DNA of 64,000 nucleotides from a virus (IMGVR_UViG_3300042900_000713:39886-103885), one strand, 5' to 3'; positions 45,167-64,000 are shown, numbered from the stretch's first letter. Made by a program: numbers and translations. Notes: generated by a model from the sequence alone, not told the origin.

Positions 45167-45580
45167 TCATCTATTTTTATTTAATCTTTCTACATGCTTT
45201 TTATTTAATCTTTCTACATGCTTTTTATGTCCCTCTTCATCTCTATAAATGTGTCTACCGGGAACTGTTAGGTTATATCCAAGTCTATCTTTTCCACCAT
45301 GCCATTTATCTTTTCTTAAAAATTTATCAGCATTTTGTTTAGCAAAAGTCCTTTTACCTTTTTCAGTTTTCTTTTCTTTAAATCCCTTTGATTTTTGTTG
45401 AGGTCCAATAACCTTAATTGCAGTTATCATATTACTAAATCTACTATCAGAGTCCCTTTCACCACGCTCTCTTTTAGCTTTATCTCTTGCAAGATGTCTC
45501 TTCATTTGAGATTGCATTTTAGGTTCATTCATTGGCTTAAATGCTTCAGCAATCATCATAAACTCCTGAAAGGTTTTCAT
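45167..45580 (-). CDS. basic protein 137 aa with tandem KKHVERLNK repeat
   Basis: TATAAATA ~30 nt upstream; 27-bp tandem duplication at the 3' end. Confidence 0.55.
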   Translation of the reverse strand: MKTFQEFMMIAEAFKPMNEPKMQSQMKRHLARDKAKRERGERDSDSRFSNMITAIKVIGPQQKSKGFKEKKTEKGKRTFAKQNADKFLRKDKWHGGKDRLGYNLTVPGRHIYRDEEGHKKHVERLNKKHVERLNKNR

Positions 45581-45637: not shown

Positions 45638-46093
45638 TTATCCTCTAATAATAGTATCAAAACCCTCCTCGTTTGTTGGAAGTTCATATTCTTTTATCAT
45701 TCTCTCAAGGACTTCTGGTGGAATGACTTTACCTGGTCTTTGGGTATTTCTTTTGAGTGCTGTTTCTAATGATACCACAAAGTACACTGCTGTTTTTTTA
45801 TAAGTATCTGGAATATGCTTAAGTTTCTCACGTCTTTGCTTCTTGGTCAAATTTGTTTGATCCCAAATTATACTCTTACCATCTTCTATTGCTTGCCTAA
45901 GAACCTTCATCATAGCAATCTGTGCGAACCTTATGTTTCCTTTAAAAACAGTATTATAAGATTGCTGGCGTTCTTTTGCGACCTCTTGAAGAATGTCATC
46001 AGAAGAAACGCGAACATATTTTTTGTATTTTGGATCATTGGAGAAGGTTGATTTTCCTGCAGTAGGAATGCCAACAAGCATTATCAGTTCCAT
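45638..46093 (-). CDS. polynucleotide 5'-kinase (T4 PseT kinase-domain-like, P-loop)
   Basis: Walker A GIPTAGKST near the N-terminus; 151 aa; overlaps the RNA ligase gene by 10 nt. Confidence 0.7.
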   Translation of the reverse strand: MELIMLVGIPTAGKSTFSNDPKYKKYVRVSSDDILQEVAKERQQSYNTVFKGNIRFAQIAMMKVLRQAIEDGKSIIWDQTNLTKKQRREKLKHIPDTYKKTAVYFVVSLETALKRNTQRPGKVIPPEVLERMIKEYELPTNEEGFDTIIRG

Positions 46094-47244
46094 TTCAAGT
46101 TACCCCACATCCAACGAGCACTTTCAATTTTCGTTTGGGAACTCAAAGATTTTCCAATCATTTTTATCAATACCTCTTGAGAACCTTTACCCGCTTTCAT
46201 TTCATACATTATAGGAACATATTTAGTCAGCAAGATTTTCTGGACGAACTCAACAGCGAAGTCTTTCTTATCAGGATACTTTGTATTTCCAGTCACAAAG
46301 AGTTCCGCCAAATCACAGGCAACGTCTTCCAGACCCACCCAGAATGCCCTCTCAAAAGAGCGTAGGCGTTGAGCGTCCTCTGGTGTCAGCAGCGGCACCA
46401 AATCGTCTACAGAGTCGTCTAGGATGGTCTGAAGGACATTCTTCTCCTGACTGATGCTGTCTTTGGAGCGGTGGCGAAGCACATAATCATCTGCCTTGAT
46501 CTTAATCATATGACCAGAATCAAAACGAATTACCACACCCTCCAAGTCTTCCCATTTACGGATGTGTTCTACAATCTTGGTGATGTCTTTGTCATCACCA
46601 GCAATTGCTTTGACTATAGGAATATTCCATGATTCGGTATATCGCTTCATAATATCATAGGGAACATATTCACCAGTATTTAAATAACGAATGCCAGTCA
46701 GAATCAGTTGATCTTCAGGATAATCAATGACAATACGATTCTTACGAGAGCACCATTCAAAAATAGGAGTGGTTCCCTTTTGGATACATTTATTAATAAA
46801 GGTGGAATAGTGTGATTTATCAGAAATGAACGCTTCTGCTTGTTCAGAAATATCAGTAACACCTGCCTTGGTTGCGAGGAGGAAACCCTCTTTGGTGGAA
46901 ATATGACGAATCATGGATCCATCAAGTTTCTCTAGAACAACGTGAGGTTCATACAGATTGATTCTATTCAGTTGAGTTTCTTCCTTCTCACCAGCATTAA
47001 AGAATTTATTGTATGGTCTTGAAATAAGAACTCCATTATCATCAAAAATCAAACCACGACATTCCCGACGAACAGAAGAACCTACAGGGTCATTAGAGTC
47101 CCACTTAAAGGTTTCCTCAAGTGCGACCATATACTGAATTACGGTGTAACCTTCTTTCTCCATTACCCGGAACTCATCTCTACCTTCAATATGAGGAAGA
47201 ACGTCATGAATGGTTTTAATTTCTGGGAAGTCGTAATTCATCAT
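46084..47244 (-). CDS. rnlA: RNA ligase 1 (T4 RnlA-like)
   Basis: ECRGLIFD…, motif I EKLDGSM (KxDG), IFEWC; length 386 aa like T4 Rnl1 (374 aa); TATAAT after terminator hairpin upstream. Confidence 0.8.
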   Translation of the reverse strand: MMNYDFPEIKTIHDVLPHIEGRDEFRVMEKEGYTVIQYMVALEETFKWDSNDPVGSSVRRECRGLIFDDNGVLISRPYNKFFNAGEKEETQLNRINLYEPHVVLEKLDGSMIRHISTKEGFLLATKAGVTDISEQAEAFISDKSHYSTFINKCIQKGTTPIFEWCSRKNRIVIDYPEDQLILTGIRYLNTGEYVPYDIMKRYTESWNIPIVKAIAGDDKDITKIVEHIRKWEDLEGVVIRFDSGHMIKIKADDYVLRHRSKDSISQEKNVLQTILDDSVDDLVPLLTPEDAQRLRSFERAFWVGLEDVACDLAELFVTGNTKYPDKKDFAVEFVQKILLTKYVPIMYEMKAGKGSQEVLIKMIGKSLSSQTKIESARWMWGNLKWN

Positions 47245-47331: not shown

Positions 47332-47667
47332 TTATGGTGATGGAGTAGAATTTTGTTTTTTGTTTTTTACTGTTCGTGCAATTTGTTTTACAAGATCAAC
47401 AGTTCCTTTCACTGCTTGAGTTACATTACGTGATGTTTGTGCAGACTTTGCTTTAGCATTTTGTCTTTGATATTCTTTTCTTTTTTTGAGTGCTTCTGCT
47501 TTTTCTTGTTGTGCCCGAAATAGTTGAGATGTAATTTTTCTTTTAGTTTTTGATTTTTTTCTTGCTGCCCTAGTTAAATCTACGGATCTTTTTTCACGAG
47601 CATCTGATTCTGCCTTAGCAGTTGCAACATCTTCCATAAACACAGAAAAGGATTTCATAAGCACCAA
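47332..47667 (-). CDS. basic Lys-rich protein 111 aa (MKSFSVFMEDVA family)
   Basis: Paralogous N-terminus; intrinsic terminator downstream. Confidence 0.5.
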   Translation of the reverse strand: MVLMKSFSVFMEDVATAKAESDAREKRSVDLTRAARKKSKTKRKITSQLFRAQQEKAEALKKRKEYQRQNAKAKSAQTSRNVTQAVKGTVDLVKQIARTVKNKKQNSTPSP

Positions 47668-53810: not shown

Positions 53811-55169
53811 TTACTTTTTGATTACGTCAGCAACGAAGTTACCCTTTACAAATACCTCGTCAACCACATTCTGCACACGGCGAGCAGTTGCAATGCCAAC
53901 TTTGTTATTGTACACGGGAATGACCACTTTGCCAAATGGTTTGATGTAGTTAGAGAAATCACCTGGTTCCAGTTCACCAGACTTCATACGGGCAGTATCA
54001 TCAGGATTCACCCGAATGCAACGACCAATGCTCTGAACAGTAGAGATAAAGTTTTGTTGACGAAGAAAGATACAAGACTGAATACCAGGAACACTGATAC
54101 CCTCGGTGAGAATACCAATATGTAGAACAACAAACTTACGATTGGAGTCAGCACCATACTCACTCAACGTATCCAGAAACTCAGTACGTGAAACCTTACG
54201 CTTACCCACATATGCTCCCAACTTGGAGGTAATATGCAGAACTTCATAACCATTGTCGTGCATTTCCTCCATAAAGGAAGTTTCAGAGAGCATCTTTATC
54301 ATTACTTTGGTGTTCGGTGCCACCACCAGAACCTTGTTCATATCATCATCATTAAAAATAGTATCACATAGAGTGTAGAAGTCACGTTCGTGTGCAGTTT
54401 CTTTGTCACGGAATGAACCAACTTCCGTCACCGCAACCACAGGAGGAAGAATACTACCATTGAGAAGCAGTTCAGGTGCCTTGACATTATGAATCTTGGA
54501 ACCAAATACCTCAGCATTATTGTTACCGGGTTTTGATGCAACTTGACTGAACTTAGGAGTTGCAGTGAGAGAATAGAAGTTCTTTGCAGTCTTACTGATT
54601 GCCTCTACAGCATCAAAGAACTTACCATTTACGGCATTATGACATTCATCCAAGTAAACAACATCAATGTCCAGTTCTGCTTTTACAATTTTATCCAGAG
54701 AATGATAAGTGGTAAAGATGAGTTTGTGACCTTCTGTCTTCTCATGCCAGTAAGCAAGTTCTAGAAAGTCAGTGATACGAGTGTGCTTGGTTTCACCACT
54801 ATGAATGTGGGCGATAGAAGCATTATCAATAAACTTCTCAAACTCTTCGCTGAGTTGCTGGCAAAGAACTAGTTTCGGAGCAACCACTAGAATGGTCTGG
54901 TTACTTTCACCTTCGGTGAAACGATGCTTCGCATCGGCAATAATCATAATAGTTTTACCCGCACTAGTAGGAGCGACTGTAAGCATCCTAGAGTGCTGTC
55001 GCATCAGTCCAAAGACTTCTTGCTGGTGAGGACGCAAATCAAACATGGGTAGTTTCCTTGTGTACGAGATCATTATAGCAGTAAAAAAGTCCACTAGGAG
55101 GTTCCCAGTGGACGGTTTCTTAAGTGGTTCAGAGGCTTTAGAGATACAATTGTTTCTCAAAAGGAACAA
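53811..55169 (-). CDS. superfamily 2 DEAD/DEAH-box helicase (ResIII-like)
   Basis: Motif I APTSAGKT, motif II LDECH, motif III-like SLTATP; ATG after E40 terminator/TATAAT. Confidence 0.75.
   Translation of the reverse strand: MFLLRNNCISKASEPLKKPSTGNLLVDFFTAIMISYTRKLPMFDLRPHQQEVFGLMRQHSRMLTVAPTSAGKTIMIIADAKHRFTEGESNQTILVVAPKLVLCQQLSEEFEKFIDNASIAHIHSGETKHTRITDFLELAYWHEKTEGHKLIFTTYHSLDKIVKAELDIDVVYLDECHNAVNGKFFDAVEAISKTAKNFYSLTATPKFSQVASKPGNNNAEVFGSKIHNVKAPELLLNGSILPPVVAVTEVGSFRDKETAHERDFYTLCDTIFNDDDMNKVLVVAPNTKVMIKMLSETSFMEEMHDNGYEVLHITSKLGAYVGKRKVSRTEFLDTLSEYGADSNRKFVVLHIGILTEGISVPGIQSCIFLRQQNFISTVQSIGRCIRVNPDDTARMKSGELEPGDFSNYIKPFGKVVIPVYNNKVGIATARRVQNVVDEVFVKGNFVADVIKK
55050..55120 (-). 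terminator. E40: box variant + terminator hairpin + T6 + TATAAT
   Basis: Minus: GTCCACTgggaacctcctAGTGGACTTTTTTACTGCTATAATG. Confidence 0.6.
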
Positions 55170-55187
55170 ACCTATTCTACACAGTTT

Positions 55188-55613
55188 TTATAGGGTTGTC
55201 AAGTAATTTAAATATTCTTGATAAAGTTCATTTTCTCTTTTATATGCTGCTATTTCATGTGATTGTTGATAATACTCCAAATCTTCCATACACTCACCCA
55301 TATAATACCTTTTGGAGGACTTGAGTTTCAGTTCCCCCTTTACCCACTGTAGAATATGTTCACACTCATGTAAAAGTGTTTTCACATAGGTTTCCTTATC
55401 CAAGTGTGTATCCAGTTCTATTAGGAAACTTCTTGGACGATATGATCCTTCAGCAATATCACAATATCCATAAGCACCGTCTTTTTTCAAACTTCGGTGA
55501 AGAACTTCAATATCCAGTTTGTGTCGAGGAAGATACTCAGACACAAACCAACACACTACTTTTTTGCAAAGACGCTTGGAATAACCGTATCCAGTGGTTT
55601 GTAGAAAAATCAT
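55188..55613 (-). CDS. small HExxH protein (possible zinc metallopeptidase fold)
   Basis: LLHECEHILQW; ATG after E41 hairpin/TATAGT. Confidence 0.45.
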   Translation of the reverse strand: MIFLQTTGYGYSKRLCKKVVCWFVSEYLPRHKLDIEVLHRSLKKDGAYGYCDIAEGSYRPRSFLIELDTHLDKETYVKTLLHECEHILQWVKGELKLKSSKRYYMGECMEDLEYYQQSHEIAAYKRENELYQEYLNYLTTL

Positions 55614-55734: not shown

Positions 55735-55798
55735 ACATACTATAAAGCACCTTGCAGGTGATCCTGAAGGTGCTTGTGACGGTTTGTGGAGTGGTTCT
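55735..55798 (-). promoter_or_regulatory. E41: box variant + hairpin + TATAGT
   Basis: Minus: GCACCTTcaggatcacctgcAAGGTGCTTTATAGTATG. Confidence 0.5.
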
Positions 55799-57041
55799 AG
55801 ATCTCTACAGGTCCTGGGTATCTTGGTCCATCTTTAAGAGCAACTAGGTGAGTATTGACTACAGCAATCTTGGTTCCCTCCCACCAACTAGTTTCTAGTC
55901 TCATAGATGAAAACCTTATATCAGTATTACGAATGAACACTGCTTTGTTTTTATTTGTATAATATGGGAAACTATCTTCATTCCAAAAAGATATATGAGT
56001 TGGATCACACCAAGCACCATTACCTTCTGTAGATGGGACTTCAATAAATGCCCACCCTCCAGGTGCTAGAACACGATGTATCTCCCTCATAGTTTTAATA
56101 GGATCTCTTAAGTGCTCAATCACATGAGAAGCATTGAGTACTCCAACACTATTATCTTCTAAAGGAATACCATCGTTTAAATTGCAAGTAATATCTCCAT
56201 CTTCTTGATCTATAGTGGTATATCCTTCTTTAGGGAATAAACCGCCACCCATATCAATTTTTAATAGTCCTTTATCATCAGCATCCTTTTCCGCAAGTCG
56301 TTGTGCATACTGATTATGGAGTTCTTTAGTTTTAATTTGAATTGCTTCATTTCTTTCTAGGAAACTATTATCTCCAGTAATTCTGTAAATATAAAGAACT
56401 TTAGGAATATGATAAAAATTAGTTTCAAGATAAGTTTTTATCATCAATTCATGGTCATCACATATAGAAAGTTCTACATTATGCCCACCAATTTGATGAT
56501 AAACATCCCTTTTCCATGCTCTTACATGATCTGGAGCATACCAAATATAAGAAAGTGAGTGACTAGATGGTTCAAAAGAATTCATCGCAATCAGTTTCTT
56601 ACCATTCCAGTCATAATTCGTATAAGTCCAACCAAATACGGGACCATAGGGAACAAACTTATCTTCCATATGATAAGTTGCATTATTACTATAAACAAAA
56701 CCACACTCTGGATTATTTTCAAATGCTATTTCAAGTTCGTTTAAGCAATCTGGAGTAAGAATGTCGTCATGGTCAACTTCAACAAGAACATCTCCAGTTC
56801 CTAATGAGAATGCTTTATTTTTTACATATCCGATGTTAGTATTGTTTTCTTTGTCTTCGAAGATTTTTACTTTGCTATCTTTTGTGATTTTTTGCGAAAG
56901 TTGATTTTTAGTTAAAGATCCATTTAAATAAAGAATCCATTCCCAGTCATCGTGAGTTTGTTTTGTGATGCTCTCATAGAGTTCATCAAGATAAGAATGT
57001 TGTTTATGTGAAGGCGTAATAATACTAAATTTCATTTTCAA
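55797..57041 (-). CDS. bifunctional glycosyltransferase family 2 / class I SAM-methyltransferase
   Basis: N-terminus FSIITPSHK…, VEVDHDD (DxD); C-terminus LEDNSVGVLNASHVIEHLRDP…VLAPGGWAFIEV (Methyltransf_11-like). Confidence 0.7.
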   Translation of the reverse strand: MKMKFSIITPSHKQHSYLDELYESITKQTHDDWEWILYLNGSLTKNQLSQKITKDSKVKIFEDKENNTNIGYVKNKAFSLGTGDVLVEVDHDDILTPDCLNELEIAFENNPECGFVYSNNATYHMEDKFVPYGPVFGWTYTNYDWNGKKLIAMNSFEPSSHSLSYIWYAPDHVRAWKRDVYHQIGGHNVELSICDDHELMIKTYLETNFYHIPKVLYIYRITGDNSFLERNEAIQIKTKELHNQYAQRLAEKDADDKGLLKIDMGGGLFPKEGYTTIDQEDGDITCNLNDGIPLEDNSVGVLNASHVIEHLRDPIKTMREIHRVLAPGGWAFIEVPSTEGNGAWCDPTHISFWNEDSFPYYTNKNKAVFIRNTDIRFSSMRLETSWWEGTKIAVVNTHLVALKDGPRYPGPVEI

Positions 57042-59860
57042 TCAAAGAAGAATAAGTGAAATAATCTTGAGTTAGTTAGGTCTGTTCCAAAGTATTCATT
57101 TGCAGAGTGAATACATTTTGCATCAAAAAGAACCAGACGATTAAAAACATTGCCAGCGGTGTCTACAAGTTGAAATTTGGTCTTATCATAATAACCACCT
57201 TCAAAAACATTAGTATCTTTAAAATCATTTTCATTTCTTAATTTTGTATCTTTATGAGCATACAAAGAAGTCCCACAAGAGAATGGTGCATCAGGAGTTA
57301 GATATACCATACCGGCAAGTGTTTGTCCATCGCAGTGATACACTAGAGAATCTTCTGCTGTGCAATACTGAAATCTACCACACATTCCGTGAGTTTCAGT
57401 CCAGTTTGTAATCTTTTTCCCTATAATTTTCTCAAATGCTTCCTTCGTTCCTGGGGCAATATACTGTTGATTTGAACGACTGCCTTTATAGTAATTAAGA
57501 TTTGGTTCAAATTCTTGTTGAAGAGCAAATTCTCTTACAGCATATGGGTCAGCATAAAAATCATCTACAATCCAAAGTCTCGGTTTGGTTGTTGTATTAA
57601 TAGTGAATGAGTTAATAGTTTTTTCTTCACTGACCTTTAACAGAGCATAGTTATGAAGATTTTGTGGGCAATCCCCACTATCTTGATAGATGTTGGTATC
57701 AATTAAGAAGTAATAATCTGGAAATGGAAGTTTTCTTTCCGGATCTACGAGTCTTGTTGTTTGCTCCAGCATCTTATCATACTGCTTTAGTTCATCATAA
57801 GTTTGAGCAAGATATACAATGTGCTCATTTCTTACTGGGCAGTATTTTTCTGCTTTATGAAACCATTCTATTGCTTTCTCATAATTTCCAAGATACTTAT
57901 ACCCAAGACCAATAGAGAATGTAGAGAAATAAGACATCTCGTGAATACCTTGTGCATTTACGTGCTTTAGATATTCTTCAAAGTAGAAAATAAATCTGCG
58001 GGCAAACTCTTTTGAGTGTGCTTCTTTTAAGGGATAAAAATTTCCTCCATAACAATCTTGATAAGATTTTGCAATATACCAGAAGTGATAAGTATCCGTG
58101 AGCATTGTTTCTTCACGAATCATTTTTTCTTCAAGTTTAAGTGCATCAGTAATATACTTAGTTCTTATAGTATAACTTTCCCCATCACTGGTTCCCGACA
58201 TTCTTAAACCGCGAGGAAGATTTAATCTCTCAAAGTTCTCTCCTTTATCATTATCCAGATAAATGATTTCGTGAGCGAGATCGTGTTGAAATCTCCAGGG
58301 TAGTTTTGCATTCCAAATCCAGGCACGATAGTAGATACAACCAGGATTAACTGCAGTTACATGAAAACTTTCAGTATTAGTATTATAGAAATAAGACCAA
58401 TCAAAATCTTCGTCTACTTCTAGATATTCATCACAATCCATTTTCATGATCCAATCACACCCGTGGTCATTACGAAGTGTGGTTTGAAGTAAATGGTCTC
58501 GGTTCCAACCAAAACCAACCCAACCTTCCTCAATATTATAAATGAAACCAGGAATGTTCTTATCTGCAAAAAACTCTTTTACAATATCTGGTGTTCCGTC
58601 AGTGGAACCATTATCTTGAAATACATAAAAATCAATATGTCTCCAGACACTCTCAAGCATTCTACGAATACCCTTCGCTTCATTCTTAAACATAGAAATC
58701 ATACAGATATTTGTACGGATTTCTTGCCCAGACTTGTGTGCCCGAAGAAAGTTATAGTATCCTAGATACTCGTTGAGCATTAGAACTGAACCTTGTTTCG
58801 ATGCTTCTTCCGCATAAATTCCGTCTGCTTCGTAAATATGAGCAAAACGAAGGTTCTTTGCAACACTCCAACGAACCATGTATTGTGAAGTATCAATCTG
58901 TGCAATTTTAGGAGTGTCTGTGGGTGCAGTGCGAGGTTCATCATTTGCCCAGACCTGACCCCAAGTAATGATTGAAGCATCACTGTTGAGGTGTGATTGA
59001 ATATTGCTCCACCAATTTGGATGAATTATATTATCATCATCTAAAATATAAACCCAATCATTATCACTTGGATTTAACTGATTCTTAATATATTCTAGAC
59101 CAATATTGCGATTTGGATTTCCCCAGAACCCAGTCTCTTGTGAATGAATAACAGTAGCATTTTCTACTGTGTGCTCATTCTTTACAGTATCATCAAATAC
59201 TACAACCCATTCACATTCTCTCGGAACTGAACCTACAATAAACTCAAGATTAAAAGGTCTACGAGAAGGAGTGACGATGAATACTTTTGAGTTCAATTCA
59301 ACCTCGGTCTTCTCATAAACCCAACAAGTTTCTTGTGTGGTAATTTTATTTCCAAGAACTTCTTGAACTGCCTTTTCAACTCCAGGAAAATCGACATTAA
59401 GATAATCGTGCCCAGCAATTACGCCCCCTTGCTTTACTTTTGGGAGCCAAGAAATTATATCGTCTTTTACATCTTGGTATTCGTGTGAAGCATCAATAAA
59501 AACAAAGTCTAATGAGTTGTCTTCAAATTGCTTGACTCCTTGTAGTGATTTTGCACGAATACCTTTATAATACTTTCTTACTGGTTCCATATTATTCAGG
59601 AAAGTATCGTAAAGATTAGAAGTGTCCATTTCATATTGTTCGTGTTCAACACTTCCTTCCCACGTATCCACACAGTATAAATCAATATCTTTTCCCGAGT
59701 TTGCAATTTCTACCGCCATATAAGCAGAAGACATTCCTTTCCAAGAACCAATCTCTACAAATTTACTTCCAGATGAAAATCTTTTCACCATAGAACTATA
59801 AAGTTCTGGATAATTAAACCAGACTTCACCGAATTGCGATTGGTTGTAAATGTGGTTCAT
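57038..59860 (-). CDS. 940-aa multidomain enzyme: N-terminal SAM-methyltransferase, two GT-A glycosyltransferase modules, TPR-like segment, C-terminal 2OG-Fe(II) oxygenase-like domain
   Basis: FVEIGSWKGMSSAYMA (MTase), YILDDDN (DxD), FQDNGSTDGT (GT2), YHCDG…NRLVLFDAKCIHSA (oxygenase-like). Confidence 0.7.
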   Translation of the reverse strand: MNHIYNQSQFGEVWFNYPELYSSMVKRFSSGSKFVEIGSWKGMSSAYMAVEIANSGKDIDLYCVDTWEGSVEHEQYEMDTSNLYDTFLNNMEPVRKYYKGIRAKSLQGVKQFEDNSLDFVFIDASHEYQDVKDDIISWLPKVKQGGVIAGHDYLNVDFPGVEKAVQEVLGNKITTQETCWVYEKTEVELNSKVFIVTPSRRPFNLEFIVGSVPRECEWVVVFDDTVKNEHTVENATVIHSQETGFWGNPNRNIGLEYIKNQLNPSDNDWVYILDDDNIIHPNWWSNIQSHLNSDASIITWGQVWANDEPRTAPTDTPKIAQIDTSQYMVRWSVAKNLRFAHIYEADGIYAEEASKQGSVLMLNEYLGYYNFLRAHKSGQEIRTNICMISMFKNEAKGIRRMLESVWRHIDFYVFQDNGSTDGTPDIVKEFFADKNIPGFIYNIEEGWVGFGWNRDHLLQTTLRNDHGCDWIMKMDCDEYLEVDEDFDWSYFYNTNTESFHVTAVNPGCIYYRAWIWNAKLPWRFQHDLAHEIIYLDNDKGENFERLNLPRGLRMSGTSDGESYTIRTKYITDALKLEEKMIREETMLTDTYHFWYIAKSYQDCYGGNFYPLKEAHSKEFARRFIFYFEEYLKHVNAQGIHEMSYFSTFSIGLGYKYLGNYEKAIEWFHKAEKYCPVRNEHIVYLAQTYDELKQYDKMLEQTTRLVDPERKLPFPDYYFLIDTNIYQDSGDCPQNLHNYALLKVSEEKTINSFTINTTTKPRLWIVDDFYADPYAVREFALQQEFEPNLNYYKGSRSNQQYIAPGTKEAFEKIIGKKITNWTETHGMCGRFQYCTAEDSLVYHCDGQTLAGMVYLTPDAPFSCGTSLYAHKDTKLRNENDFKDTNVFEGGYYDKTKFQLVDTAGNVFNRLVLFDAKCIHSANEYFGTDLTNSRLFHLFFFD

Positions 59861-60549
59861 AACTTAGCTCTTTCCTCAATAAGTTTTAAAATTTCTTGAT
59901 TCAGTTCTTGCCCTTTTGATGGGGCATAAAGTGCTCTGGGTCTTGGGTCAGTTCCTTCTGGTGGATCAGTAAGATAATAAACTGCCAGACTCTTTCTATA
60001 AACTCCTTCTGGACAAGTCATTGGAGTTGCAAATCCGTGCCAGGAATTGTGAGTTGTATCAAATAAAACTGCACGATTAAAGATATTATCTACTGTAACT
60101 ATCTTTTCATCCGGTTTATTTATTAAATTATTATGAGACCAAAATTCAAGATTACCACCCCATTCTACATTCCAATTTTGAGTTGTATAAATGATAAGAT
60201 TTAATTTTCTTTGAAGTTTTAATTTAGGATGAATTGAATAATCTAGATGGACATTTAATTTACCATTTTTTCCAAGTAAATGTAACCCACCACCATGCAA
60301 TCCAATATCAGGGTATAGTGTTTTTATTCCTGTTATTTCTTTGAGTTTTTCAATAAACTCTGGAGAATTTAAATATGCAAAAGTTTTATAAGTTTCTGGT
60401 CCAAAATAATACCAGTTATTACAAGATCTTTTAACTTCCAGTTGGTTGTTATATTCAAACCACGCTGGGCAATTATATTCTGGAAATTCTTGTTCTATTC
60501 TTTTTGCTCTTTCAATATCAAAAAAATTATCTATGATATGATATTTCAT
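59857..60549 (-). CDS. 2OG-Fe(II) oxygenase-like protein
   Basis: NVHLDYSIH (HxD) and NRAVLFDTTHNSWHGF; homologous to the C-terminal domain of the 940-aa protein. Confidence 0.55.
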   Translation of the reverse strand: MKYHIIDNFFDIERAKRIEQEFPEYNCPAWFEYNNQLEVKRSCNNWYYFGPETYKTFAYLNSPEFIEKLKEITGIKTLYPDIGLHGGGLHLLGKNGKLNVHLDYSIHPKLKLQRKLNLIIYTTQNWNVEWGGNLEFWSHNNLINKPDEKIVTVDNIFNRAVLFDTTHNSWHGFATPMTCPEGVYRKSLAVYYLTDPPEGTDPRPRALYAPSKGQELNQEILKLIEERAKL

Positions 60550-60699
60550 ATATGCTCATAATCTGTTCTTGAATGTATTTATTATACGTCTCATATGCTT
60601 GTGATCTTCCTGGACCCCAAATAATTCCAATTGCTCCTGGTACTTCTTGAGCAACATAAACACTTAAAGTATCAAGCGTATTCGTCAAGGTGAGAGGGA

Positions 60700-61500
60700 T
60701 TAAATGCCGAACCGTGCTCTCATCGCCAAAAAGTTTTGTGAGATTTCTGATGCTGTGAGTGCTCTGTTGTATAATTTGTACGAATACATTATTCCATTAA
60801 AGGATCTAGCAAAGTTTGTATCCAATCCTGCTGTTATTCTTGTTAGGCTATCTCCAAATATTCTAGTTGTTGATAAAGAACTTCGTATAAAGATACCATT
60901 AATATAATATGAAAATCCATTTGTAGTTTTGATTACAACTAAATGGCATATATTTGGATAACTAGTATAATTCACCAATATTGTTGGGGCAAAATTATTG
61001 TTATGTACTCCTACTACAAATCCGTTAGTTCCAAAACAAAACTGATATCCTGCGTAGGCACTATTGTTATAATTGTAATAAGTATCACCAGATAGTCCAT
61101 TTCCAGACCTATTTCCATAATATGATGTTCCAGAAAGACTTTCAGTATAGGAGGCATATATGGTTGAGTTTGCTTTTAACCAATATTCATACGTAAGTGA
61201 ACCCTCAATTTGTGCAGTTGTTAAATTAGGAGCAATATTGGTAACATAATCATCAACCCCATCAAAACTCAAAGAACCACCATTAGACGCATTATAACCC
61301 ACACCATTCACAAGAGTTCCATTATTTCCATTACCACTCAAATCAGTCCAAGTCGTTCCAGAACCTCCATAAGAACTTGAAACTCCCGCATCCAGATTCA
61401 ATACTAATCCAGACTGAACTACTCCTTTGGTTGCAACGTGAGTTCTTCCTGTGTTTGTGAGTGCTGCCCAGTTCTTTTCAACACCACCATAAACACCCAC
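60700..61500 (-). CDS. LamG/concanavalin-A-like jellyroll domain protein (paralog 1 of 3)
   Basis: TWTDLSGNGNNGTLVNGVGYNASNGGSLSFDGVDDYV … YNRALTASEISQNF. Confidence 0.6.
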   Translation of the reverse strand: MGVYGGVEKNWAALTNTGRTHVATKGVVQSGLVLNLDAGVSSSYGGSGTTWTDLSGNGNNGTLVNGVGYNASNGGSLSFDGVDDYVTNIAPNLTTAQIEGSLTYEYWLKANSTIYASYTESLSGTSYYGNRSGNGLSGDTYYNYNNSAYAGYQFCFGTNGFVVGVHNNNFAPTILVNYTSYPNICHLVVIKTTNGFSYYINGIFIRSSLSTTRIFGDSLTRITAGLDTNFARSFNGIMYSYKLYNRALTASEISQNFLAMRARFGI

Positions 61501-61501
61501 C

Positions 61502-61756
61502 TTACATTACCTCCATAGGTGCAGACCATTCTGGAGTGTTTAAAATATCTAAAATCTCTTCATAAGTGTAATACCCCTGAATGGTTGTGAGTGCCTGTAC
61601 TGATGGTGGTGGAGTTTCTCCGTCCCACTTTACAAACGTCAAAGTTTCATCCACAGATTTTCTTACAGTCTCGGCGGAAGTTTCTAATACCTGTGAGAAA
61701 TCAATAAGATTGAGTTCTGATGTTGCAAAGATGCAAAAGTTTCTATCGTCGTACAT
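61502..61756 (-). CDS. hypothetical protein 84 aa
   Basis: Between LamG paralogs. Confidence 0.45.
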   Translation of the reverse strand: MYDDRNFCIFATSELNLIDFSQVLETSAETVRKSVDETLTFVKWDGETPPPSVQALTTIQGYYTYEEILDILNTPEWSAPMEVM

Positions 61757-61773
61757 ATTAGTTTTTTAAATAT

Positions 61774-62514
61774 TTATGTGAGACCATAACGTCCTTTAAG
61801 AGCATCATAGTTTTGTTTTACTTCTGTTGCGGAGAGTGCTCTGTTGTATATTTGGGTGTTGGAGATGTTGCCTTTAAAAATTCGTGAACCAAAAAAACTA
61901 AAACGAATTTGCGCAATAAACAAATCTCTATTGATTATATAATTAACGTTACCATTACTAGCAGTTCCCGTATATACTTGGATGCCATTTTTATATCCCA
62001 ATAACGATGTTCCATTTTTGGCATAAGTTATATTTTGCCAAACTGAAGTTGTAATTTGAATACCTTTTCCTGCGCCAATTCCACCTCCACCAGTAGGTTG
62101 AAAGGTTGCTCCGTCGTGCCAAGCAAGATAAAAATATCTGTTTGTAGTTGCATCTTCAGATTGTAACACCCATCCCTGATTAAAACTAGTAGTGGCGTGA
62201 TCAAAATCTATCATTGAAACAAGTGCAAGAGTTTGAACTGCGGGATTAACCCAAACAGATAAAGTAAAATTTTGGTTGCGAATAGTTGAGGGATTAGTTA
62301 ATGAAGTATAATCATCAACCCCATCAAAAACAAAAGACCCATAATTGCTTCCACTATATCCCACTCCATTCACAAGAGTTCCATTATTTCCATTACCACT
62401 TCTATCAAACCAAGTCAGTCCAGATTTTGGATAAGACCTTGCATTTGCCGCATCAAGATATAAGACTAATCCTGATGTTACTCCCAGTGGTTCTTTTGCT
62501 CCGTGCATTAACAT
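61774..62514 (-). CDS. LamG-like domain protein (paralog 2)
   Basis: LTWFDRSGNGNNGTLVNGVGYSGSNYGSFVFDGVDDYT … YNRALSATEVKQNY. Confidence 0.6.
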   Translation of the reverse strand: MLMHGAKEPLGVTSGLVLYLDAANARSYPKSGLTWFDRSGNGNNGTLVNGVGYSGSNYGSFVFDGVDDYTSLTNPSTIRNQNFTLSVWVNPAVQTLALVSMIDFDHATTSFNQGWVLQSEDATTNRYFYLAWHDGATFQPTGGGGIGAGKGIQITTSVWQNITYAKNGTSLLGYKNGIQVYTGTASNGNVNYIINRDLFIAQIRFSFFGSRIFKGNISNTQIYNRALSATEVKQNYDALKGRYGLT

Positions 62515-62539
62515 TTTTTATTTCCTCTTCTTTTTATAT

Positions 62540-63232
62540 TCAAAGACCATAGCGGGACTTGGTTGCATTATAGTTTTGTTTGACTTCTGCTGCGGAGAGT
62601 GCTCTGTTGTATCTAAAATAATTATAAACATTCCCTTGCCCATTTCTACCTCCTTGTTGATCACTTCCAATCCAAGTGGATACTGGAGAAGGTGTTGTTG
62701 TTCTTGTAATTGATGTGGTGTTAGTAATCATAAGAGTTCCGTCAATATATACTTTATGCTCGTTGCTACCATTTGTAGTGTAAACATACATATGAGGAAT
62801 TGTTATATCAGATAAAGTAGTAATCCTACCAATCTGGGTAAATGTTACAGAAGAACTTAAAACATAAAACTCTATATCTCTAGTTGCACCATAATAATTA
62901 TTTGGATGTATGATATGTCCATTTGCCTGTCTAGAAGAAGAAATCCAACCATCCTTATTCCAAGTTGTAGTGACAGATTTTGCCCACACTATAACTGTTT
63001 CAGCATAAGGATTAGCAAGATTATATGTAACATAATCATCAACCCCATCAAAAACCAAAGAACCCTTATTAGCACTAGAATATCCAACCCCATTCACAAG
63101 AGTTCCAGTATTACCACGACCACTCAAATCAGTCCAAGTGGTTCCAGACCCTGGATAAGACTTTGGATTTGCTGCGTCTAAACAAAGAACGAGATTATCT
63201 GTTATTATTTTTGGATTGTAATTTATCGCCAA
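62540..63232 (-). CDS. LamG-like domain protein (paralog 3)
   Basis: TTWTDLSGRGNTGTLVNGVGYSSANKGSLVFDGVDDYV … YNRALSAAEVKQNY; GATAAATA ~28 nt upstream. Confidence 0.6.
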   Translation of the reverse strand: MAINYNPKIITDNLVLCLDAANPKSYPGSGTTWTDLSGRGNTGTLVNGVGYSSANKGSLVFDGVDDYVTYNLANPYAETVIVWAKSVTTTWNKDGWISSSRQANGHIIHPNNYYGATRDIEFYVLSSSVTFTQIGRITTLSDITIPHMYVYTTNGSNEHKVYIDGTLMITNTTSITRTTTPSPVSTWIGSDQQGGRNGQGNVYNYFRYNRALSAAEVKQNYNATKSRYGL

Positions 63233-63265
63233 CTTTATTTCACCTGTTTCTTATGAGAGTATTTA

Positions 63266-63628
63266 TCAAATTTTATGAATCTTAATTTCTTTATAAAATG
63301 AGTGAGTGAGTTCATTAATTTCTTTTTTGATTCTTGCTCGTTCATCATTAGTTCGATAAACACTTCTTGCAAGTTCAATAAAATGAGAAGAAAAATCTTT
63401 AGTTCTTTCTAATTTTCTTAAATCATCTTCAATCTTCCATAGTTTTTGATTGACTTCTTTAAGTTTTTGTAAATATGACGAAAGATATACCTGATGATTT
63501 TTTGCAATTTCAATAAGATCATTTAGTTCTTGGGTAATGAAACTACTAGATGAATGTTCTGACTTGATTTGGAGAATAGTAATCTTATCTAATAGTTCAC
63601 CGACTGATGTTTGAATGTTTATTTTCAT
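63266..63628 (-). CDS. coiled-coil protein 120 aa
   Basis: Minus ORF. Confidence 0.5.
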   Translation of the reverse strand: MKINIQTSVGELLDKITILQIKSEHSSSSFITQELNDLIEIAKNHQVYLSSYLQKLKEVNQKLWKIEDDLRKLERTKDFSSHFIELARSVYRTNDERARIKKEINELTHSFYKEIKIHKI

Positions 63629-63661: not shown

Positions 63662-64000
63662 TCATAAAACCTCTTGAACTTTATTTTTAATTTTAAGTAT
63701 TCTATTACTCCACCATTTCCTTACATCTTGAGAACTTACTTTACTATCTAGAGTATTTAATACATCACTCCAAGTTTCGGCAAAAATCCAAGGAGGATTG
63801 TCTTCATATTTGAAAGTATTTTCTATTTCTTTTTGTATTCCAACTACAATAGGAATTGCTCCATTCATTGATGCCTCATAAAGACGAAAACAATCCAGAG
63901 AAGAATTACCACGACCACAAGGAACAAAAGTAGATTGAGAATATACTTTACACATTAGTTCTTTTGATAATGAGTCTCCAATCATATAAGGTGTAATTTG
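63662..64000 (-). CDS. partial gene running off the window end
   Basis: ORF open at the right edge. Confidence 0.4.
   Translation of the reverse strand, partial: QITPYMIGDSLSKELMCKVYSQSTFVPCGRGNSSLDCFRLYEASMNGAIPIVVGIQKEIENTFKYEDNPPWIFAETWSDVLNTLDSKVSSQDVRKWWSNRILKIKNKVQEVL

What the first reader, a model, noticed from the sequence alone, without database searches (positions are those of the whole stretch)
55797..63232. Glycan-modification / decoration cluster at the window 3' end
Five classes of genes sit together here. One is a GT2-methyltransferase fusion. Another is a 940-aa SAM-MTase-GT-GT-TPR-oxygenase multidomain protein. A third is a free 2OG-Fe(II) oxygenase-like protein (HxD…H). 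Three tandem LamG-like jellyroll paralogs share a conserved LSGNGNNGTLVNGVGY…FDGVDDY core. Nearby are an SF2 helicase and an HExxH protein. The combination suggests synthesis or modification of a polysaccharide ligand and lectin-like virion or host-surface proteins. The domain order in the 940-aa protein is unusual.
Basis: partly seen in the sequence, partly recalled or inferred. Interest (0 to 1): 0.55.

Follow-up and report, generated by a model that had tools for sequence, protein, structure and literature searches.

The report
Cyanophage fibre-linked glycosylation and hydroxylase cluster
The window ends inside a roughly 21-kb block of late genes from an uncultured freshwater cyanophage, where tail-fibre and lectin-like proteins sit beside soluble sugar-adding, methylating and hydroxylating enzymes that probably decorate phage proteins, although no experiment has tested this.

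Summary
All genes lie on the minus strand.

- **Conserved operon.** It runs 2OG oxygenase (60549-59857), then the 940-aa protein, then GT2-methyltransferase, and ends at a strong hairpin.
- **The 940-aa protein.** In order it carries a sugar-O-methyltransferase, a GT-A domain, a GT2 plus helical TPR domain, and a DUF6445 domain. The GT2-TPR part resembles the SunS/ThuS peptide glycosyltransferases. DUF6445 is shown here to be an oxygenase like protein prolyl hydroxylases.
- **Distribution.** The GT2-TPR-DUF6445 core has 659 metagenomic relatives and is essentially virus-specific. It lies next to the GT2-methyltransferase in 71 of 79 viral loci.
- **LamG genes.** The three LamG genes and an 84-aa partner form a variable tail-fibre-associated cassette array.
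- **Extent.** An identical metagenome contig continues about 13 kb past the window end. It adds RCC1 propellers, more glycosyltransferases and methyltransferases, a sulfotransferase and a (Gly-X-Gln)n fibre. This block is conserved in 51 viral contigs and in cultured phage S-SRM01.
- **Expression and location.** T4-type late-promoter motifs precede the LamG genes and the operon. No enzyme has a membrane segment.

Best reading (inferred): a late cytoplasmic system that hydroxylates and glycosylates proteins, probably fibre proteins. Host-surface remodelling remains a serious rival. The helicase and HExxH genes are unrelated neighbours.

The parts
63662..64000 (-). 3' part (C-terminal 112 aa) of a 259-aa putative glycosyltransferase resembling the RXYLT1 C-terminal domain. 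The gene starts beyond the window end.
   Evidence: Full gene is in L004:9188-9967, which is identical to the window over the 1423-nt overlap. Pfam RXYLT1_C E 1.2e-4, below the cutoff.
63266..63628 (-). DUF6165 protein (120 aa). It is the last gene of the conserved upstream block of RCC1 and glycan-enzyme genes.
   Evidence: Pfam DUF6165 42.6 bits against a cutoff of 27. Same position in 51 IMG/VR loci and in S-SRM01 gp348.
63260..63267 (-). T4-type late-promoter-like motif GATAAATA, 27 nt before the LamG3 start.
   Evidence: ATAAATA occurs 15 times on the minus strand and 0 times on the plus strand. Ten copies lie 12-30 nt upstream of a start codon.
62540..63232 (-). LamG3, a free-standing Laminin_G_3 jellyroll protein (230 aa).
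   Evidence: Pfam 30.7 bits against 27.6. PHROG 24074 and 8510 'virion structural protein'. Alignment A4.
61774..62514 (-). LamG2, a free-standing Laminin_G_3 protein (246 aa).
   Evidence: Pfam 51.7 bits. tblastn matches the C-terminal domain of S-PM2 virion protein p176, an S-SKS1 protein and a Flavobacterium phage 'structural protein'.
61771..61778 (-). Late-promoter-like motif CATAAATA, 14 nt before the orf84 start.
61502..61756 (-). orf84, a small protein that co-occurs with LamG genes. Possibly a fibre assembly or adaptor factor.
   Evidence: Its only phage homologues are in S-SKS1 and Flavobacterium phage immuto. These same phages carry LamG homologues, and in both the gene lies inside a tail-fibre cluster.
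60700..61500 (-). LamG1, a free-standing Laminin_G_3 protein (266 aa, GTG start).
   Evidence: Pfam 32.1 bits. It matches the third LamG unit of PHROG 24074.
60576..60583 (-). Late-promoter-like motif AATAAATA, 26 nt before the 2OG oxygenase start.
59857..60549 (-). Free 2OG-Fe(II) oxygenase resembling prolyl 4-hydroxylases (230 aa). First gene of the conserved operon. Its stop overlaps the next start by 4 nt.
   Evidence: Pfam 2OG-FeII_Oxy_3 54.1 bits. H101, D103, H171 and R185 each conserved in at least 21 of 22 homologues. 76-77% identity in L005 and L006.
57038..59860 (-). 940-aa multidomain enzyme. Domains: sugar-O-methyltransferase (about 1-185), GT-A #1 (about 190-375), GT2 (385-560), helical TPR domain (568-745), DUF6445 2OG oxygenase (about 758-940).
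   Evidence: Pfam. AlphaFold models. Foldseek to ThuS/SunS, MycF/SpnH/MeT1, and OGFOD1/PHD2. hhalign of DUF6445 against the free oxygenase family. 659 homologues.
55797..57035 (-). GT2-methyltransferase fusion. Probable ATG start at 57035, giving 412 aa. Last gene of the operon.
   Evidence: Pfam. 57.6% identity to S-CRM01 gp90. 73-84% identity in L005, L006 and L008. Adjacent to the core gene in 71 of 79 loci.
55746..55774 (-). Terminator-like hairpin that closes the operon.
   Evidence: RNA fold -19.5 kcal/mol, z = -5.5 against shuffles. Also seen in the scan.

Best explanation
Window 55.8-64 kb is the promoter-distal end of a co-oriented block of about 21 kb. The block belongs to the late tail-fibre region of an uncultured freshwater T4-like cyanophage (Kyanoviridae, distantly S-SRM01-like).

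Gene order, reconstructed with an identical metagenome contig:
1. A (Gly-X-Gln)21 fibre with a C-terminal region that looks like an S74-type chaperone (not HMM-tested).
2. RCC1 propellers interleaved with a protein carrying N-terminal TPRs (its C-terminal half is unassigned), DUF8361, a sulfotransferase, a methyltransferase-GT2-methyltransferase protein and a putative GT.
3. DUF6165.
4. LamG3, LamG2, orf84, LamG1.
5. 2OG oxygenase, the 940-aa enzyme, GT2-methyltransferase.
6. A terminator-like hairpin.

**Shown here**
- The domain identities.
- The operon structure.
- The late-promoter motifs.
- The absence of membrane segments.
- The conservation and adjacency patterns.

**Inferred mechanism**
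- The three-gene operon is a cytoplasmic protein-modification cassette.
- One or both oxygenases resembling prolyl hydroxylases hydroxylate a residue of a target protein. These are the free enzyme and the fused DUF6445 domain.
- The helical TPR domain holds the target.
- The SunS-like GT2 domain attaches the first sugar.
- GT-A #1 and the GT2 of the downstream fusion extend the glycan.
- The two methyltransferase domains O-methylate the sugars.
- The upstream block adds further sugars, methyl groups and sulfate.
- The most likely targets are phage late proteins made at the same time. These are the fibre, the RCC1 propellers or the LamG proteins.
- The LamG proteins themselves are exchangeable, lectin-like components of the fibre apparatus that recognise the host.
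For: **Enzyme identity points to a protein acceptor**
- Domain HMMs are above curated cutoffs.
- The best structural matches of the GT2 plus helical region are the peptide glycosyltransferases ThuS and SunS, over about 400 aligned columns at E 2e-9.
- The best NCBIfam hit is the SunS family, though weak. The PDB sequence search gives a weak hit to the flagellin glycosyltransferase GmaR.
- DUF6445 models at pLDDT 94. It is closest to the protein prolyl hydroxylases OGFOD1 and PHD2. It keeps H-x-D...H plus Arg.
- The methyltransferase domain is closest to the sugar O-methyltransferases MycF, SpnH and MeT1.
- No enzyme has a 19-residue hydrophobic stretch above 1.6, and none has a signal peptide.

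**Operon structure and timing**
- The genes overlap or nearly abut: a 4-nt overlap and a 2-nt spacer. A hairpin of -19.5 kcal/mol ends the unit.
- NATAAATA motifs precede LamG3, orf84 and the oxygenase gene. The motif occurs 15 times on the coding strand and never on the other strand. It lies mostly 12-30 nt before start codons.

**Conservation**
- The operon is 73-90% identical in freshwater and TARA marine contigs, while the neighbouring helicase is 33% identical.
- The core and the GT2-methyltransferase are adjacent in 71 of 79 loci.

**Link to tail fibres**
- Of 13 loci carrying the window-type oxygenase, 11 have a collagen-like fibre gene within 6 kb.
- In L005 and L006 the operon directly follows collagen-like fibre genes. 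L006 also has S74 and LtfC-like genes upstream.
- In isolate DSL-LC02, a glycosyltransferase-methyltransferase-DUF6445 island sits between a collagen-like protein and tail-fibre genes.
- In S-WAM2, DUF6445 and a 2OG oxygenase follow four tail-fibre genes.
- In S-SRM01 the upstream block follows baseplate and long-tail-fibre genes.
- The window phage's own contig has a (G-X-Q)21 fibre upstream.

**Gene fusions linking the parts**
- DUF8361 and Methyltransf_24 are free genes in the upstream block and are fused to the core in relatives.
- RCC1-LamG fusion proteins exist.

**Outside evidence**
- A 2OG oxygenase was detected in the S-SCSM2R virion proteome (PMC12801897).
Against: - There is no direct evidence of any glycosylated or hydroxylated virion protein in any cyanophage. 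The acceptor is unknown.
- Nineteen 'type B' loci lack the window-type oxygenase. The one annotated (L084) places the same gene pair among ThyX and ribonucleotide reductase genes, not fibre genes. Fibre adjacency is therefore lineage-dependent and may be phylogenetic inertia.
- The adjacent fibres are (G-X-Q)n with almost no Pro or Lys. Collagen-style prolyl or lysyl hydroxylation of the repeats is not supported.
- The SunS and GmaR similarities are at fold and architecture level only. The NCBIfam score is 19 bits against a cutoff of 350.
- GT2 plus TPR proteins also occur in polysaccharide pathways.
- The Foldseek list for DUF6445 also includes HygX, a small-molecule oxygenase, at similar E-values.
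- The literature on large cyanomyoviruses reads such clusters as host cell-wall modification genes (PMC12801897).
- Late-promoter motifs are consensus matches, not expression data.
Confidence: 0.45

Rival explanations
1. The cluster remodels the host cell envelope. The enzymes would alter LPS O-antigen, exopolysaccharide or S-layer glycans of the infected picocyanobacterium. Possible benefits are blocking superinfection, stopping progeny from sticking to debris, or changing grazer recognition. The LamG proteins would bind that glycan.
For: - This is the standard reading of glycosyltransferase and epimerase clusters in P-SSM2, S-SCSM1 and S-SCSM2R (PMC12801897).
- The weak NCBIfam hits of the GT2 domains are to polysaccharide enzymes: TuaG, WcaA, EpsE and HpsE/N.
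- A sulfotransferase and sugar O-methyltransferases fit sulfated or methylated cyanobacterial exopolysaccharides.
- S-SRM01 has a nucleotide-sugar epimerase in the block.
Against: - There is no initiating phosphoglycosyl transferase, flippase, polymerase or membrane-embedded synthase. No enzyme has a transmembrane segment.
- The best structural match of the core GT2-TPR region is to peptide or protein glycosyltransferases. It is fused to an oxygenase like protein hydroxylases.
- The cluster lies inside late tail-fibre gene blocks and has late-promoter motifs, not an early host-takeover context.
- The core family is absent from cellular genomes. Only 2 MAG contigs matched among 185,579 species.
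Confidence: 0.25
2. The oxygenase and glycosyltransferase cassette modifies a host protein or a small molecule. Examples are a translation factor or ribosomal protein, as OGFOD1/Tpa1, EarP or PHD-type enzymes do, or a metabolite or nucleotide sugar. Its position next to fibre genes would be incidental.
For: - The closest folds of DUF6445 include OGFOD1, a ribosomal protein prolyl hydroxylase, and HygX, an aminoglycoside oxygenase.
- The annotated type B locus (L084) lies among nucleotide-metabolism genes.
- Syn9 carries an array of such oxygenase genes away from fibre genes.
Against: - Fibre adjacency recurs in several lineages with different gene arrangements: DSL-LC02, S-WAM2, S-SKS1, L005, L006 and L115.
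- Fusions link the cassette to modules of the fibre-adjacent block.
- The operon has late-promoter motifs.
Confidence: 0.12
3. The cassette hypermodifies phage DNA. It would oxidise a base, then glycosylate and methylate it, as in T4 glucosyl-hmC, base J, or phage TET plus glycosyltransferase systems.
For: - The combination of oxygenase, glycosyltransferase and methyltransferase superficially matches known DNA hypermodification logic.
- The annotated type B locus (L084) is next to ThyX and ribonucleotide reductase genes.
Against: - The oxygenases are of the P4H/PHD type, not TET/JBP or AlkB.
- The methyltransferase is closest to sugar O-methyltransferases.
- The glycosyltransferase carries a TPR protein-binding domain and matches peptide glycosyltransferases.
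- No hydroxymethylase or other DNA-modification gene is adjacent.
Confidence: 0.05
4. There is no single system. The genes are independent accessory genes that accumulated at a hypervariable junction between the late and early regions.
For: - The window lies at a boundary with a hyperplastic region of small ORFs, homing endonucleases and an RNA ligase.
- LamG copy number and order differ between near-identical contigs.
- The block after DUF6165 varies among relatives.
Against: - The three-gene operon is conserved as a unit, with overlapping genes, across freshwater and marine phages.
- The upstream block is syntenic in 51 contigs plus S-SRM01.
- Domain fusions connect separate genes of the region.
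Confidence: 0.08

Closest known systems
SunS/ThuS glycocin S-glycosyltransferases and Listeria GmaR (flagellin O-GlcNAc transferase)
   Same: - An N-terminal GT2 (GT-A) catalytic domain is followed by a helical TPR-like domain that binds a peptide or protein substrate.
- These are the top Foldseek hits, over about 400 aligned columns.
- They are also the best NCBIfam hit, though weak, and GmaR is a weak PDB sequence hit.
   Different: - Sequence identity is only 14-16%, far below the family cutoff.
- No SunA-like precursor peptide or flagellin is present.
- The phage protein has an extra C-terminal 2OG oxygenase and, in this variant, extra N-terminal methyltransferase and GT-A domains.
Mimivirus L230 and animal LH3 (PLOD3), bifunctional collagen hydroxylase-glycosyltransferases (PMC9614988, PMC5802723)
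   Same: - One polypeptide carries glycosyltransferase domain(s) at the N-terminal side and a 2OG-Fe(II) oxygenase at the C-terminus.
- It is virus-encoded and often lies next to genes with collagen-like repeats.
   Different: - The oxygenase is of the PHD/OGFOD1/P4H type, not a lysyl hydroxylase domain.
- The neighbouring phage fibres are (Gly-X-Gln)n without Lys or Pro acceptors.
- No homology beyond the superfamily level was detected.
Cytoplasmic Skp1 prolyl-hydroxylation and glycosylation pathway of Dictyostelium and Toxoplasma: PhyA, Gnt1, PgtA, AgtA (PMC3515798, PMC11570480)
   Same: - Soluble cytoplasmic enzymes are used.
- A PHD-type prolyl hydroxylase creates the acceptor, and multidomain glycosyltransferases then build a short glycan on it.
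   Different: - That pathway is eukaryotic and its enzymes are separate proteins from other GT families.
- It has no methylation or sulfation.
- The target here is unknown.
Chlorovirus PBCV-1 A064R (GT-GT-methyltransferase) and A111/114R, which glycosylate the capsid (PMC9614988, PMC7826918)
   Same: Virus-encoded, soluble, multidomain enzymes combine two glycosyltransferase domains with a sugar O-methyltransferase to build a methylated glycan on a virion protein.
   Different: - The domain order and GT families differ.
- There is no oxygenase or TPR domain.
- It is a eukaryotic giant virus, and its acceptor is the capsid N-glycan.
Mycobacteriophage virion glycosylation (Freeman et al. 2023, PMC10527164, known to me through the reference list of PMC12801897)
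   Same: Tailed-phage glycosyltransferase genes placed by structural genes modify virion proteins. That these include methyltransferase genes is from my own recollection, not from a source read here.
   Different: - The host is an actinobacterium.
- The enzymes are simpler single-domain proteins.
- No oxygenases are involved.
- It has been shown experimentally, unlike this cluster.
Cell-wall and LPS gene clusters and 2OG oxygenase arrays of large T4-like cyanophages: P-SSM2, S-SCSM1, S-SCSM2R, Syn9 gp45-60
   Same: - Same virus family.
- Same enzyme classes: GT2, epimerases and many 2OG-Fe(II) oxygenases, including DUF6445 (Syn9 gp46 and gp52) (PMC12801897).
   Different: - In those phages the genes are separate, and the literature interprets them as host-surface or metabolic genes.
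- The fused GT2-TPR-DUF6445 core, its conserved partner genes, and the link to fibre genes have not been described. A full-text search for DUF6445 found 0 papers.
Synechococcus phage S-SRM01 gp335-gp349 (PMC8557907)
   Same: It is the only cultured phage found with the upstream block of RCC1, TPR protein, DUF8361, sulfotransferase, glycosyltransferase and DUF6165. The TPR protein is 63.5% identical. The block lies directly after baseplate and long-tail-fibre genes.
   Different: - No match to the 2OG / 940-aa / GT2-methyltransferase operon or to the LamG array appeared among the S-SRM01 hits listed.
- An epimerase follows DUF6165 instead.
- The terms I searched for in the paper (glycosyltransferase, sulfotransferase, chromosome condensation, tail fiber, 2OG) returned no discussion of this block.

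Membership tests
GT2 / GT-A glycosyltransferases | Pfam Glycos_transf_2 match above the gathering score | tested here: met
   GT2-methyltransferase scores 60.3 bits against 23.3. The 940-aa protein scores 55.2 bits against 23.3.
GT2 / GT-A glycosyltransferases | DxD metal and nucleotide-sugar binding motif | tested here: met
   D475-C-D477 is invariant in 57 homologues. The 412-aa protein has 'VDHDD' and GT-A #1 has 'LDDDN'.
SunS-family peptide glycosyltransferases | GT-A domain followed by a helical TPR-like substrate-binding domain | tested here: met
   AlphaFold model: strands and helices at 385-560, then helices at 568-745. The top Foldseek hits are ThuS and SunS, with about 400 columns aligned.
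SunS-family peptide glycosyltransferases | Score above the NCBIfam TIGR04195 equivalog cutoff | tested here: not met
   19.4 bits against a cutoff of 350. This is a resemblance in architecture, not membership.
SunS-family peptide glycosyltransferases | Adjacent small precursor peptide as acceptor | tested here: inconclusive
   The only small ORFs nearby are orf84 and a 33-codon ORF in the 60550-60699 gap. Neither resembles a glycocin.
2OG-Fe(II) oxygenase superfamily (P4H/PHD-like) | H-x-D...H iron triad plus a basic residue binding 2OG | tested here: met
   Free enzyme: H101, D103, H171 and R185 each conserved in at least 21 of 22 sequences. DUF6445 domain: H842, D844, H918 and R932 invariant across diverse members, including Syn9 and S-WAM2.
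2OG-Fe(II) oxygenase superfamily (P4H/PHD-like) | Double-stranded beta-helix fold | tested here: met
   The DUF6445 model has pLDDT 94.4. Foldseek to OGFOD1 gives E 9e-7 and TM 0.61, followed by PHD2. hhalign against the free oxygenase family gives probability 79% with the HxD motifs aligned. The free enzyme scores 54.1 bits on Pfam 2OG-FeII_Oxy_3.
2OG-Fe(II) oxygenase superfamily (P4H/PHD-like) | Protein prolyl hydroxylase activity | not testable with these tools
   Fold neighbours include both protein hydroxylases and a small-molecule oxygenase, HygX.
Laminin_G_3 / concanavalin-A-like lectin fold | Pfam PF13385 match above the gathering score | tested here: met
   32.1, 51.7 and 30.7 bits against 27.6.
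Laminin_G_3 / concanavalin-A-like lectin fold | Virion association or ligand binding | not testable with these tools
   Indirect evidence only. Homologous domains end S-PM2 virion protein p176 and PHROG families labelled baseplate or virion. Free copies lie in fibre clusters.
Class I SAM-dependent sugar O-methyltransferases (TylF/MycF type) | Methyltransf_24 match and fold similarity to sugar O-methyltransferases | tested here: met
   78.2 bits against 26.3. Foldseek matches MeT1, SpnH and MycF with TM 0.6-0.69 normalised to the target.
LH3 / mimivirus L230 bifunctional collagen-modifying enzymes | Glycosyltransferase and 2OG oxygenase in one chain | tested here: met
LH3 / mimivirus L230 bifunctional collagen-modifying enzymes | Lysyl-hydroxylase-type oxygenase domain, and Gly-X-Lys or Gly-X-Pro acceptor repeats in neighbouring collagen-like proteins | tested here: not met
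   No lysyl hydroxylase structure is among the top 50 fold matches. The neighbouring fibres are Gly-X-Gln with almost no Lys or Pro.
Bacterial surface-polysaccharide biosynthesis clusters (Wzx/Wzy, ABC or synthase type) | Membrane-bound initiating transferase, flippase, polymerase or synthase | tested here: not met
   The maximum 19-residue hydropathy is 1.49 or lower for every enzyme in the window and the upstream block.
T4-type late transcription unit | NATAAATA motif shortly upstream of genes on the coding strand | tested here: met
   Three motifs lie in the cluster. The strand bias is 15 to 0, and ten copies lie 12-30 nt from a start. Expression timing itself was not tested.
Phage virion-glycosylation systems | Glycans demonstrated on virion proteins | not testable with these tools
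   Only gene context is available.

The most novel reading that the evidence does not exclude
Tailed cyanophages encode their own cytoplasmic pathway that couples protein hydroxylation to protein glycosylation. A virus-specific enzyme fuses a SunS-like protein glycosyltransferase to a PHD-like oxygenase, and partner oxygenase, glycosyltransferase, methyltransferase and sulfotransferase genes help it. Together they coat tail-fibre proteins (Gly-X-Gln fibres, RCC1 propellers or LamG adhesins) with methylated or sulfated glycans. This would be the first such system in phages of Gram-negative hosts. It would also give a function to the long-unexplained abundance of 2OG-Fe(II) oxygenase genes in cyanophages.
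Probability: 0.25. Interest if true: 0.8.

Novelty: new variant of a known kind. Interest (0 to 1): 0.6.

Why it matters
- **An open question.** Cyanomyoviruses carry many 2OG-Fe(II) oxygenase and glycosyltransferase genes whose roles are unknown. They are usually assigned by default to host-surface remodelling or nitrogen sensing.
- **What this locus adds.** Two oxygenase types, including the uncharacterised DUF6445, are hard-wired to glycosyltransferases that resemble protein-directed enzymes and to sugar methyltransferases. The wiring is by gene fusion, operon structure and synteny. The genes repeatedly sit in late tail-fibre blocks.
- **A testable hypothesis.** Phage-made glycoprotein fibres can be looked for in cultured phages such as S-SRM01 and DSL-LC02.
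- **Consequences if true.** It would bear on host range, adsorption, resistance to proteases or grazers, and how phage particles interact with marine and freshwater polysaccharide gels.
- **Enzymology.** The core is modular, with interchangeable N-terminal modules, and is conserved at 73-90% identity between freshwater and marine contigs. That makes it an attractive target for biochemical study.

Tried and rejected
1. **Collagen-style prolyl or lysyl hydroxylation of the neighbouring fibres.** Rejected. The repeats are Gly-X-Gln with almost no Pro or Lys.
2. **Near-identical DNA in cultured phages.** None found by megablast. Only protein-level relatives exist.
3. **Cellular homologues of the core, to infer the substrate from bacterial context.** Only two MAG contigs matched among 185,579 species genomes.
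4. **First AlphaFold run of the whole 940-aa protein.** It left DUF6445 unmodelled (pLDDT below 50) because the alignment was too shallow. A second run with a diverse domain alignment solved this.
5. **Homology of the 120-aa genes that precede LamG or propeller genes in L005, L006 and L008 to DUF6165.** No BLAST similarity.
6. **The upstream TPR protein (446 aa).** PDB sequence search and NCBIfam found only the TPR part. Its C-terminal half remains unassigned.
7. **Helicase and HExxH genes as part of the system.** Rejected on the terminator hairpin and non-conserved neighbourhood.
8. **A glycocin-like precursor peptide next to the SunS-like enzyme.** None recognisable.
9. **tRNAs.** None in the window.

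Full report
**What the window is**

The 64-kb window has about 35-40% GC and almost all its genes lie on the minus strand. No cultured phage shares near-identical DNA over the cluster region searched. Protein and distant DNA matches place it among T4-like cyanomyoviruses (Kyanoviridae). The closest are the freshwater phages S-SRM01 and S-CRM01. Most of the window is a hyperplastic region of small ORFs. It holds an RNA ligase, a DNA methylase, a Band-7 protein and two GIY-YIG endonucleases. The finding lies at its 3' edge.

**Checking the observation**

- **GT2-methyltransferase fusion (55797-57041).** It passes the Pfam cutoffs.
- **940-aa protein (57038-59860).**
  - Pfam finds Methyltransf_24, a weak GT-A hit, Glycos_transf_2, TPR and DUF6445 in that order.
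  - An AlphaFold model built on 57 homologues shows four well-formed N-terminal domains.
- **DUF6445 is a 2OG oxygenase.**
  - A profile-profile comparison with the free oxygenase family gives 79% probability, with the HxD motifs aligned.
  - H842, D844, H918 and R932 are invariant from freshwater contigs to Syn9 and S-WAM2.
  - A pLDDT-94 model matches OGFOD1 and PHD2 best.
- **Free oxygenase (59857-60549).** It passes 2OG-FeII_Oxy_3. H101, D103, H171 and R185 are each conserved in at least 21 of 22 homologues.
- **Three LamG proteins.**
  - All pass Laminin_G_3.
  - They share a 168-nt N-terminal block (74-79% nucleotide identity) and a 69-nt C-terminal block around a variable middle.
- **Helicase and HExxH genes.**
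  - Both are present.
  - A hairpin of -19.5 kcal/mol (z = -5.5) separates them from the cluster.
  - Other genes replace them in relatives.

**The cluster is larger than the window**

- A look-up of the DUF6165 protein found metagenome contigs that carry it. One of them (L004) is identical to the window over the 1423-nt overlap.
- Together with L152 they extend the map about 13 kb beyond position 64000.
- The full order is:
  - a large protein of at least 819 aa;
  - a 497-aa fibre with (Gly-Val/Ala-Gln)21 and a C-terminal region that looks like an S74-type chaperone (not HMM-tested);
  - RCC1, a 225-aa protein, RCC1;
  - a 446-aa protein with N-terminal TPRs and an unassigned C-terminal half;
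  - a 261-aa protein, DUF8361, a Cys-rich 117-aa protein, RCC1;
  - a sulfotransferase and a 232-aa protein;
  - a methyltransferase-GT2-methyltransferase protein (716 aa);
  - an RXYLT1-like protein (259 aa; its last 112 codons are window 63662-64000);
  - DUF6165;
  - LamG3, LamG2, orf84 and LamG1;
  - the 2OG oxygenase, the 940-aa enzyme and the GT2-methyltransferase;
  - the hairpin.
- The upstream block is syntenic in 51 IMG/VR contigs. It is usually preceded by a collagen-like fibre gene.
- It also occurs in cultured S-SRM01 as gp335-gp348, directly after baseplate-wedge and long-tail-fibre genes.

**The conserved operon**

- The oxygenase, core and GT2-methyltransferase genes overlap or nearly abut.
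- They are 73-90% identical in freshwater and TARA marine contigs, while the adjacent helicase is only 33% identical.
- The invariant core is residues 385-940 (GT2-TPR-DUF6445). It occurs alone at about 565 aa, or with swapped N-terminal modules: Methyltransf_24, Methyltransf_31, DUF8361 or an extra GT-A domain, reaching 1482 aa. It has 659 relatives.
- The 940-aa arrangement is therefore one recurrent variant, not a singular oddity.
- The family is essentially viral. Only two MAG contigs matched among 185,579 species genomes.
- In 79 viral loci the GT2-methyltransferase is adjacent in 71.
- Two contexts exist.
  - Type A has the window-type oxygenase. In 11 of 13 such loci a Gly-X-Gln fibre gene lies within 6 kb.
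  - Type B loci lack the window-type oxygenase. The one annotated (L084) lies among ThyX and ribonucleotide reductase genes and carries a different P4H-like oxygenase two genes downstream.
- Isolates add independent arrangements.
  - DSL-LC02 has a glycosyltransferase-methyltransferase-DUF6445 island between a collagen-like protein and tail-fibre genes.
  - In S-WAM2, four tail-fibre genes are followed by DUF6445 and a 2OG oxygenase.
  - In S-SKS1, a fibre and LamG gene is followed by an orf84 homologue, one more gene and a 2OG oxygenase.
  - Syn9 has a tandem array of such oxygenases.

**What the enzymes look like**

- The GT2 plus helical region matches the peptide S-glycosyltransferases ThuS and SunS best by structure.
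- SunS is also the best, though weak, NCBIfam hit. The flagellin glycosyltransferase GmaR is a weak PDB sequence hit.
- All three are GT2-plus-TPR enzymes that act on proteins or peptides.
- The N-terminal methyltransferase resembles the sugar O-methyltransferases MycF, SpnH and MeT1.
- No enzyme in the window or the upstream block has a transmembrane segment or signal peptide. No initiating transferase, flippase or polymerase is present.

**Timing**

- The T4 late-promoter core ATAAATA occurs 15 times on the coding strand and never on the other strand. About 23 occurrences are expected on both strands together.
- Ten copies lie 12-30 nt upstream of a start codon. Two of these precede GIY-YIG endonuclease genes.
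- Three motifs lie in the cluster: before LamG3, before orf84 and before the oxygenase gene.
- This suggests late expression but is not expression data.

**The LamG genes**

- Their homologues are C-terminal domains of virion or baseplate proteins: S-PM2 p176 and several PHROG families.
- One PHROG profile has three LamG units in one 892-aa chain.
- RCC1-LamG fusion proteins exist.
- orf84 has phage homologues only where LamG homologues occur. In both cases they lie inside tail-fibre clusters.
- A contig that is otherwise identical (L003) departs from the window exactly at the conserved C-terminal LamG block. It then carries a LamG3-like copy instead of orf84 and LamG1.
- This pattern fits exchangeable host-recognition cassettes. 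An assembly chimera cannot be excluded.

**Interpretation**

- Shown here:
  - the domain identities;
  - the operon and terminator structure;
  - the promoter motifs;
  - the soluble nature of the enzymes;
  - the synteny and the gene fusions.
- Inferred: the operon hydroxylates and then glycosylates a protein. It adds O-methylated sugars, and the upstream block adds further sugars and sulfate. The substrates are phage late proteins of the fibre apparatus.
- I give this 0.45.
- The main rival is host envelope glycan remodelling, at 0.25. It is the standard reading in the literature (PMC12801897). The missing membrane machinery, the protein-directed architecture and the late, structural context all weaken it.
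- Other rivals are a host protein or metabolite as target (0.12), independent accessory genes (0.08) and DNA hypermodification (0.05).

**Comparison with known systems**

- The system works most like three known cases.
  - The bifunctional hydroxylase-glycosyltransferases mimivirus L230 and LH3 (PMC9614988, PMC5802723).
  - The cytoplasmic Skp1 hydroxyproline-glycosylation pathway (PMC3515798).
  - The chlorovirus multidomain glycosyltransferase-methyltransferase enzymes (PMC9614988, PMC7826918).
- It is not a member of any of these.
  - The lysyl hydroxylase features and the Lys/Pro acceptor repeats were tested and not met.
  - The SunS equivalog threshold was not met.
- A full-text search found no paper mentioning DUF6445.
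- The terms I searched for in the S-SRM01 paper returned no discussion of the block.
- I rate the finding a new variant of a known kind, namely virus-encoded glycan-modification clusters. Its interest is moderately high because it makes the role of cyanophage 2OG oxygenases experimentally testable.

Noticed in passing
window 53811-55202: The 452-aa helicase ORF is probably over-extended. Homologues align from residue 41, which implies an ATG start at 55046 and about 411 aa. A terminator-like hairpin (55113-55089) and a near-consensus sigma-70-like promoter (55202-55174, 11 of 12 matches) lie inside the extension.
   Followed up: partly
window 42291-43088 and 21468-22139: Two paralogous ORFs (265 and 223 aa) begin with a GIY-YIG-like N-terminal motif, read by eye and not HMM-tested. 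Each is preceded by two NATAAATA motifs, about 100 nt and about 26 nt upstream of the start.
   Followed up: partly
whole window: ATAAATA is absent from the plus strand and present 15 times on the minus strand. The total is below the shuffle expectation of about 23. The motif therefore looks avoided except upstream of genes.
   Followed up: yes
L003:11100-12191 compared with window 61438-62000: A contig otherwise identical to the window switches sequence at the conserved C-terminal LamG block, around 61,850-61,950. It then encodes a second LamG3-like gene instead of orf84 and LamG1. The LamG2 C-terminus there is a LamG2/LamG1 chimera. This is either strain-level cassette recombination or an assembly chimera.
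   Followed up: partly
P0257, P0310: Metagenomic proteins of 561-579 aa fuse an RCC1 propeller to a Laminin_G_3 domain. This links the two kinds of putative fibre proteins of this block.
   Followed up: no
L004:4020-4373 (beyond the window end): A 117-aa protein with 10 cysteines, in a CxxCxxCC-like pattern, is conserved inside the upstream glycan block. Its role is unknown.
   Followed up: no
L084 and other 'type B' loci: In another phage lineage the gene pair appears in the order GT2-methyltransferase then core. In L084, the one locus annotated, it sits among ThyX and class II ribonucleotide reductase genes. A conserved 214-aa protein with no Pfam hit and a 190-aa 2OG oxygenase follow it there.
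   Followed up: partly
window 60550-60699: The 150-nt gap between LamG1 and the oxygenase gene holds a possible 33-codon ORF and the late-promoter-like motif.
   Followed up: no
window 45167-45580 and 47332-47667: Small, very basic Lys/Arg-rich proteins follow late-promoter-like motifs. They might be internal virion or DNA-binding proteins.
   Followed up: no
window 46084-47244, 9974-10648, 31580-32398: A T4 Rnl1-type RNA ligase, an N6/N4 DNA methylase and an SPFH/Band-7 protein lie in the small-ORF region upstream of the cluster.
   Followed up: no
window 1-2000: GC content is 47%, against 33-40% elsewhere in the window. The cause was not examined.
   Followed up: no
L144 (S-SCSM2R ORF194-195) and L145 (DSL-LC02): In both isolates a 324-aa gene sits immediately upstream of a protein containing DUF6445. 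It is annotated 'MGP protein' in S-SCSM2R and 'beta-mannosyltransferase' in DSL-LC02. Whether the two genes are homologous was not checked. This could be another recurrent pairing of DUF6445 with a glycan enzyme.
   Followed up: no
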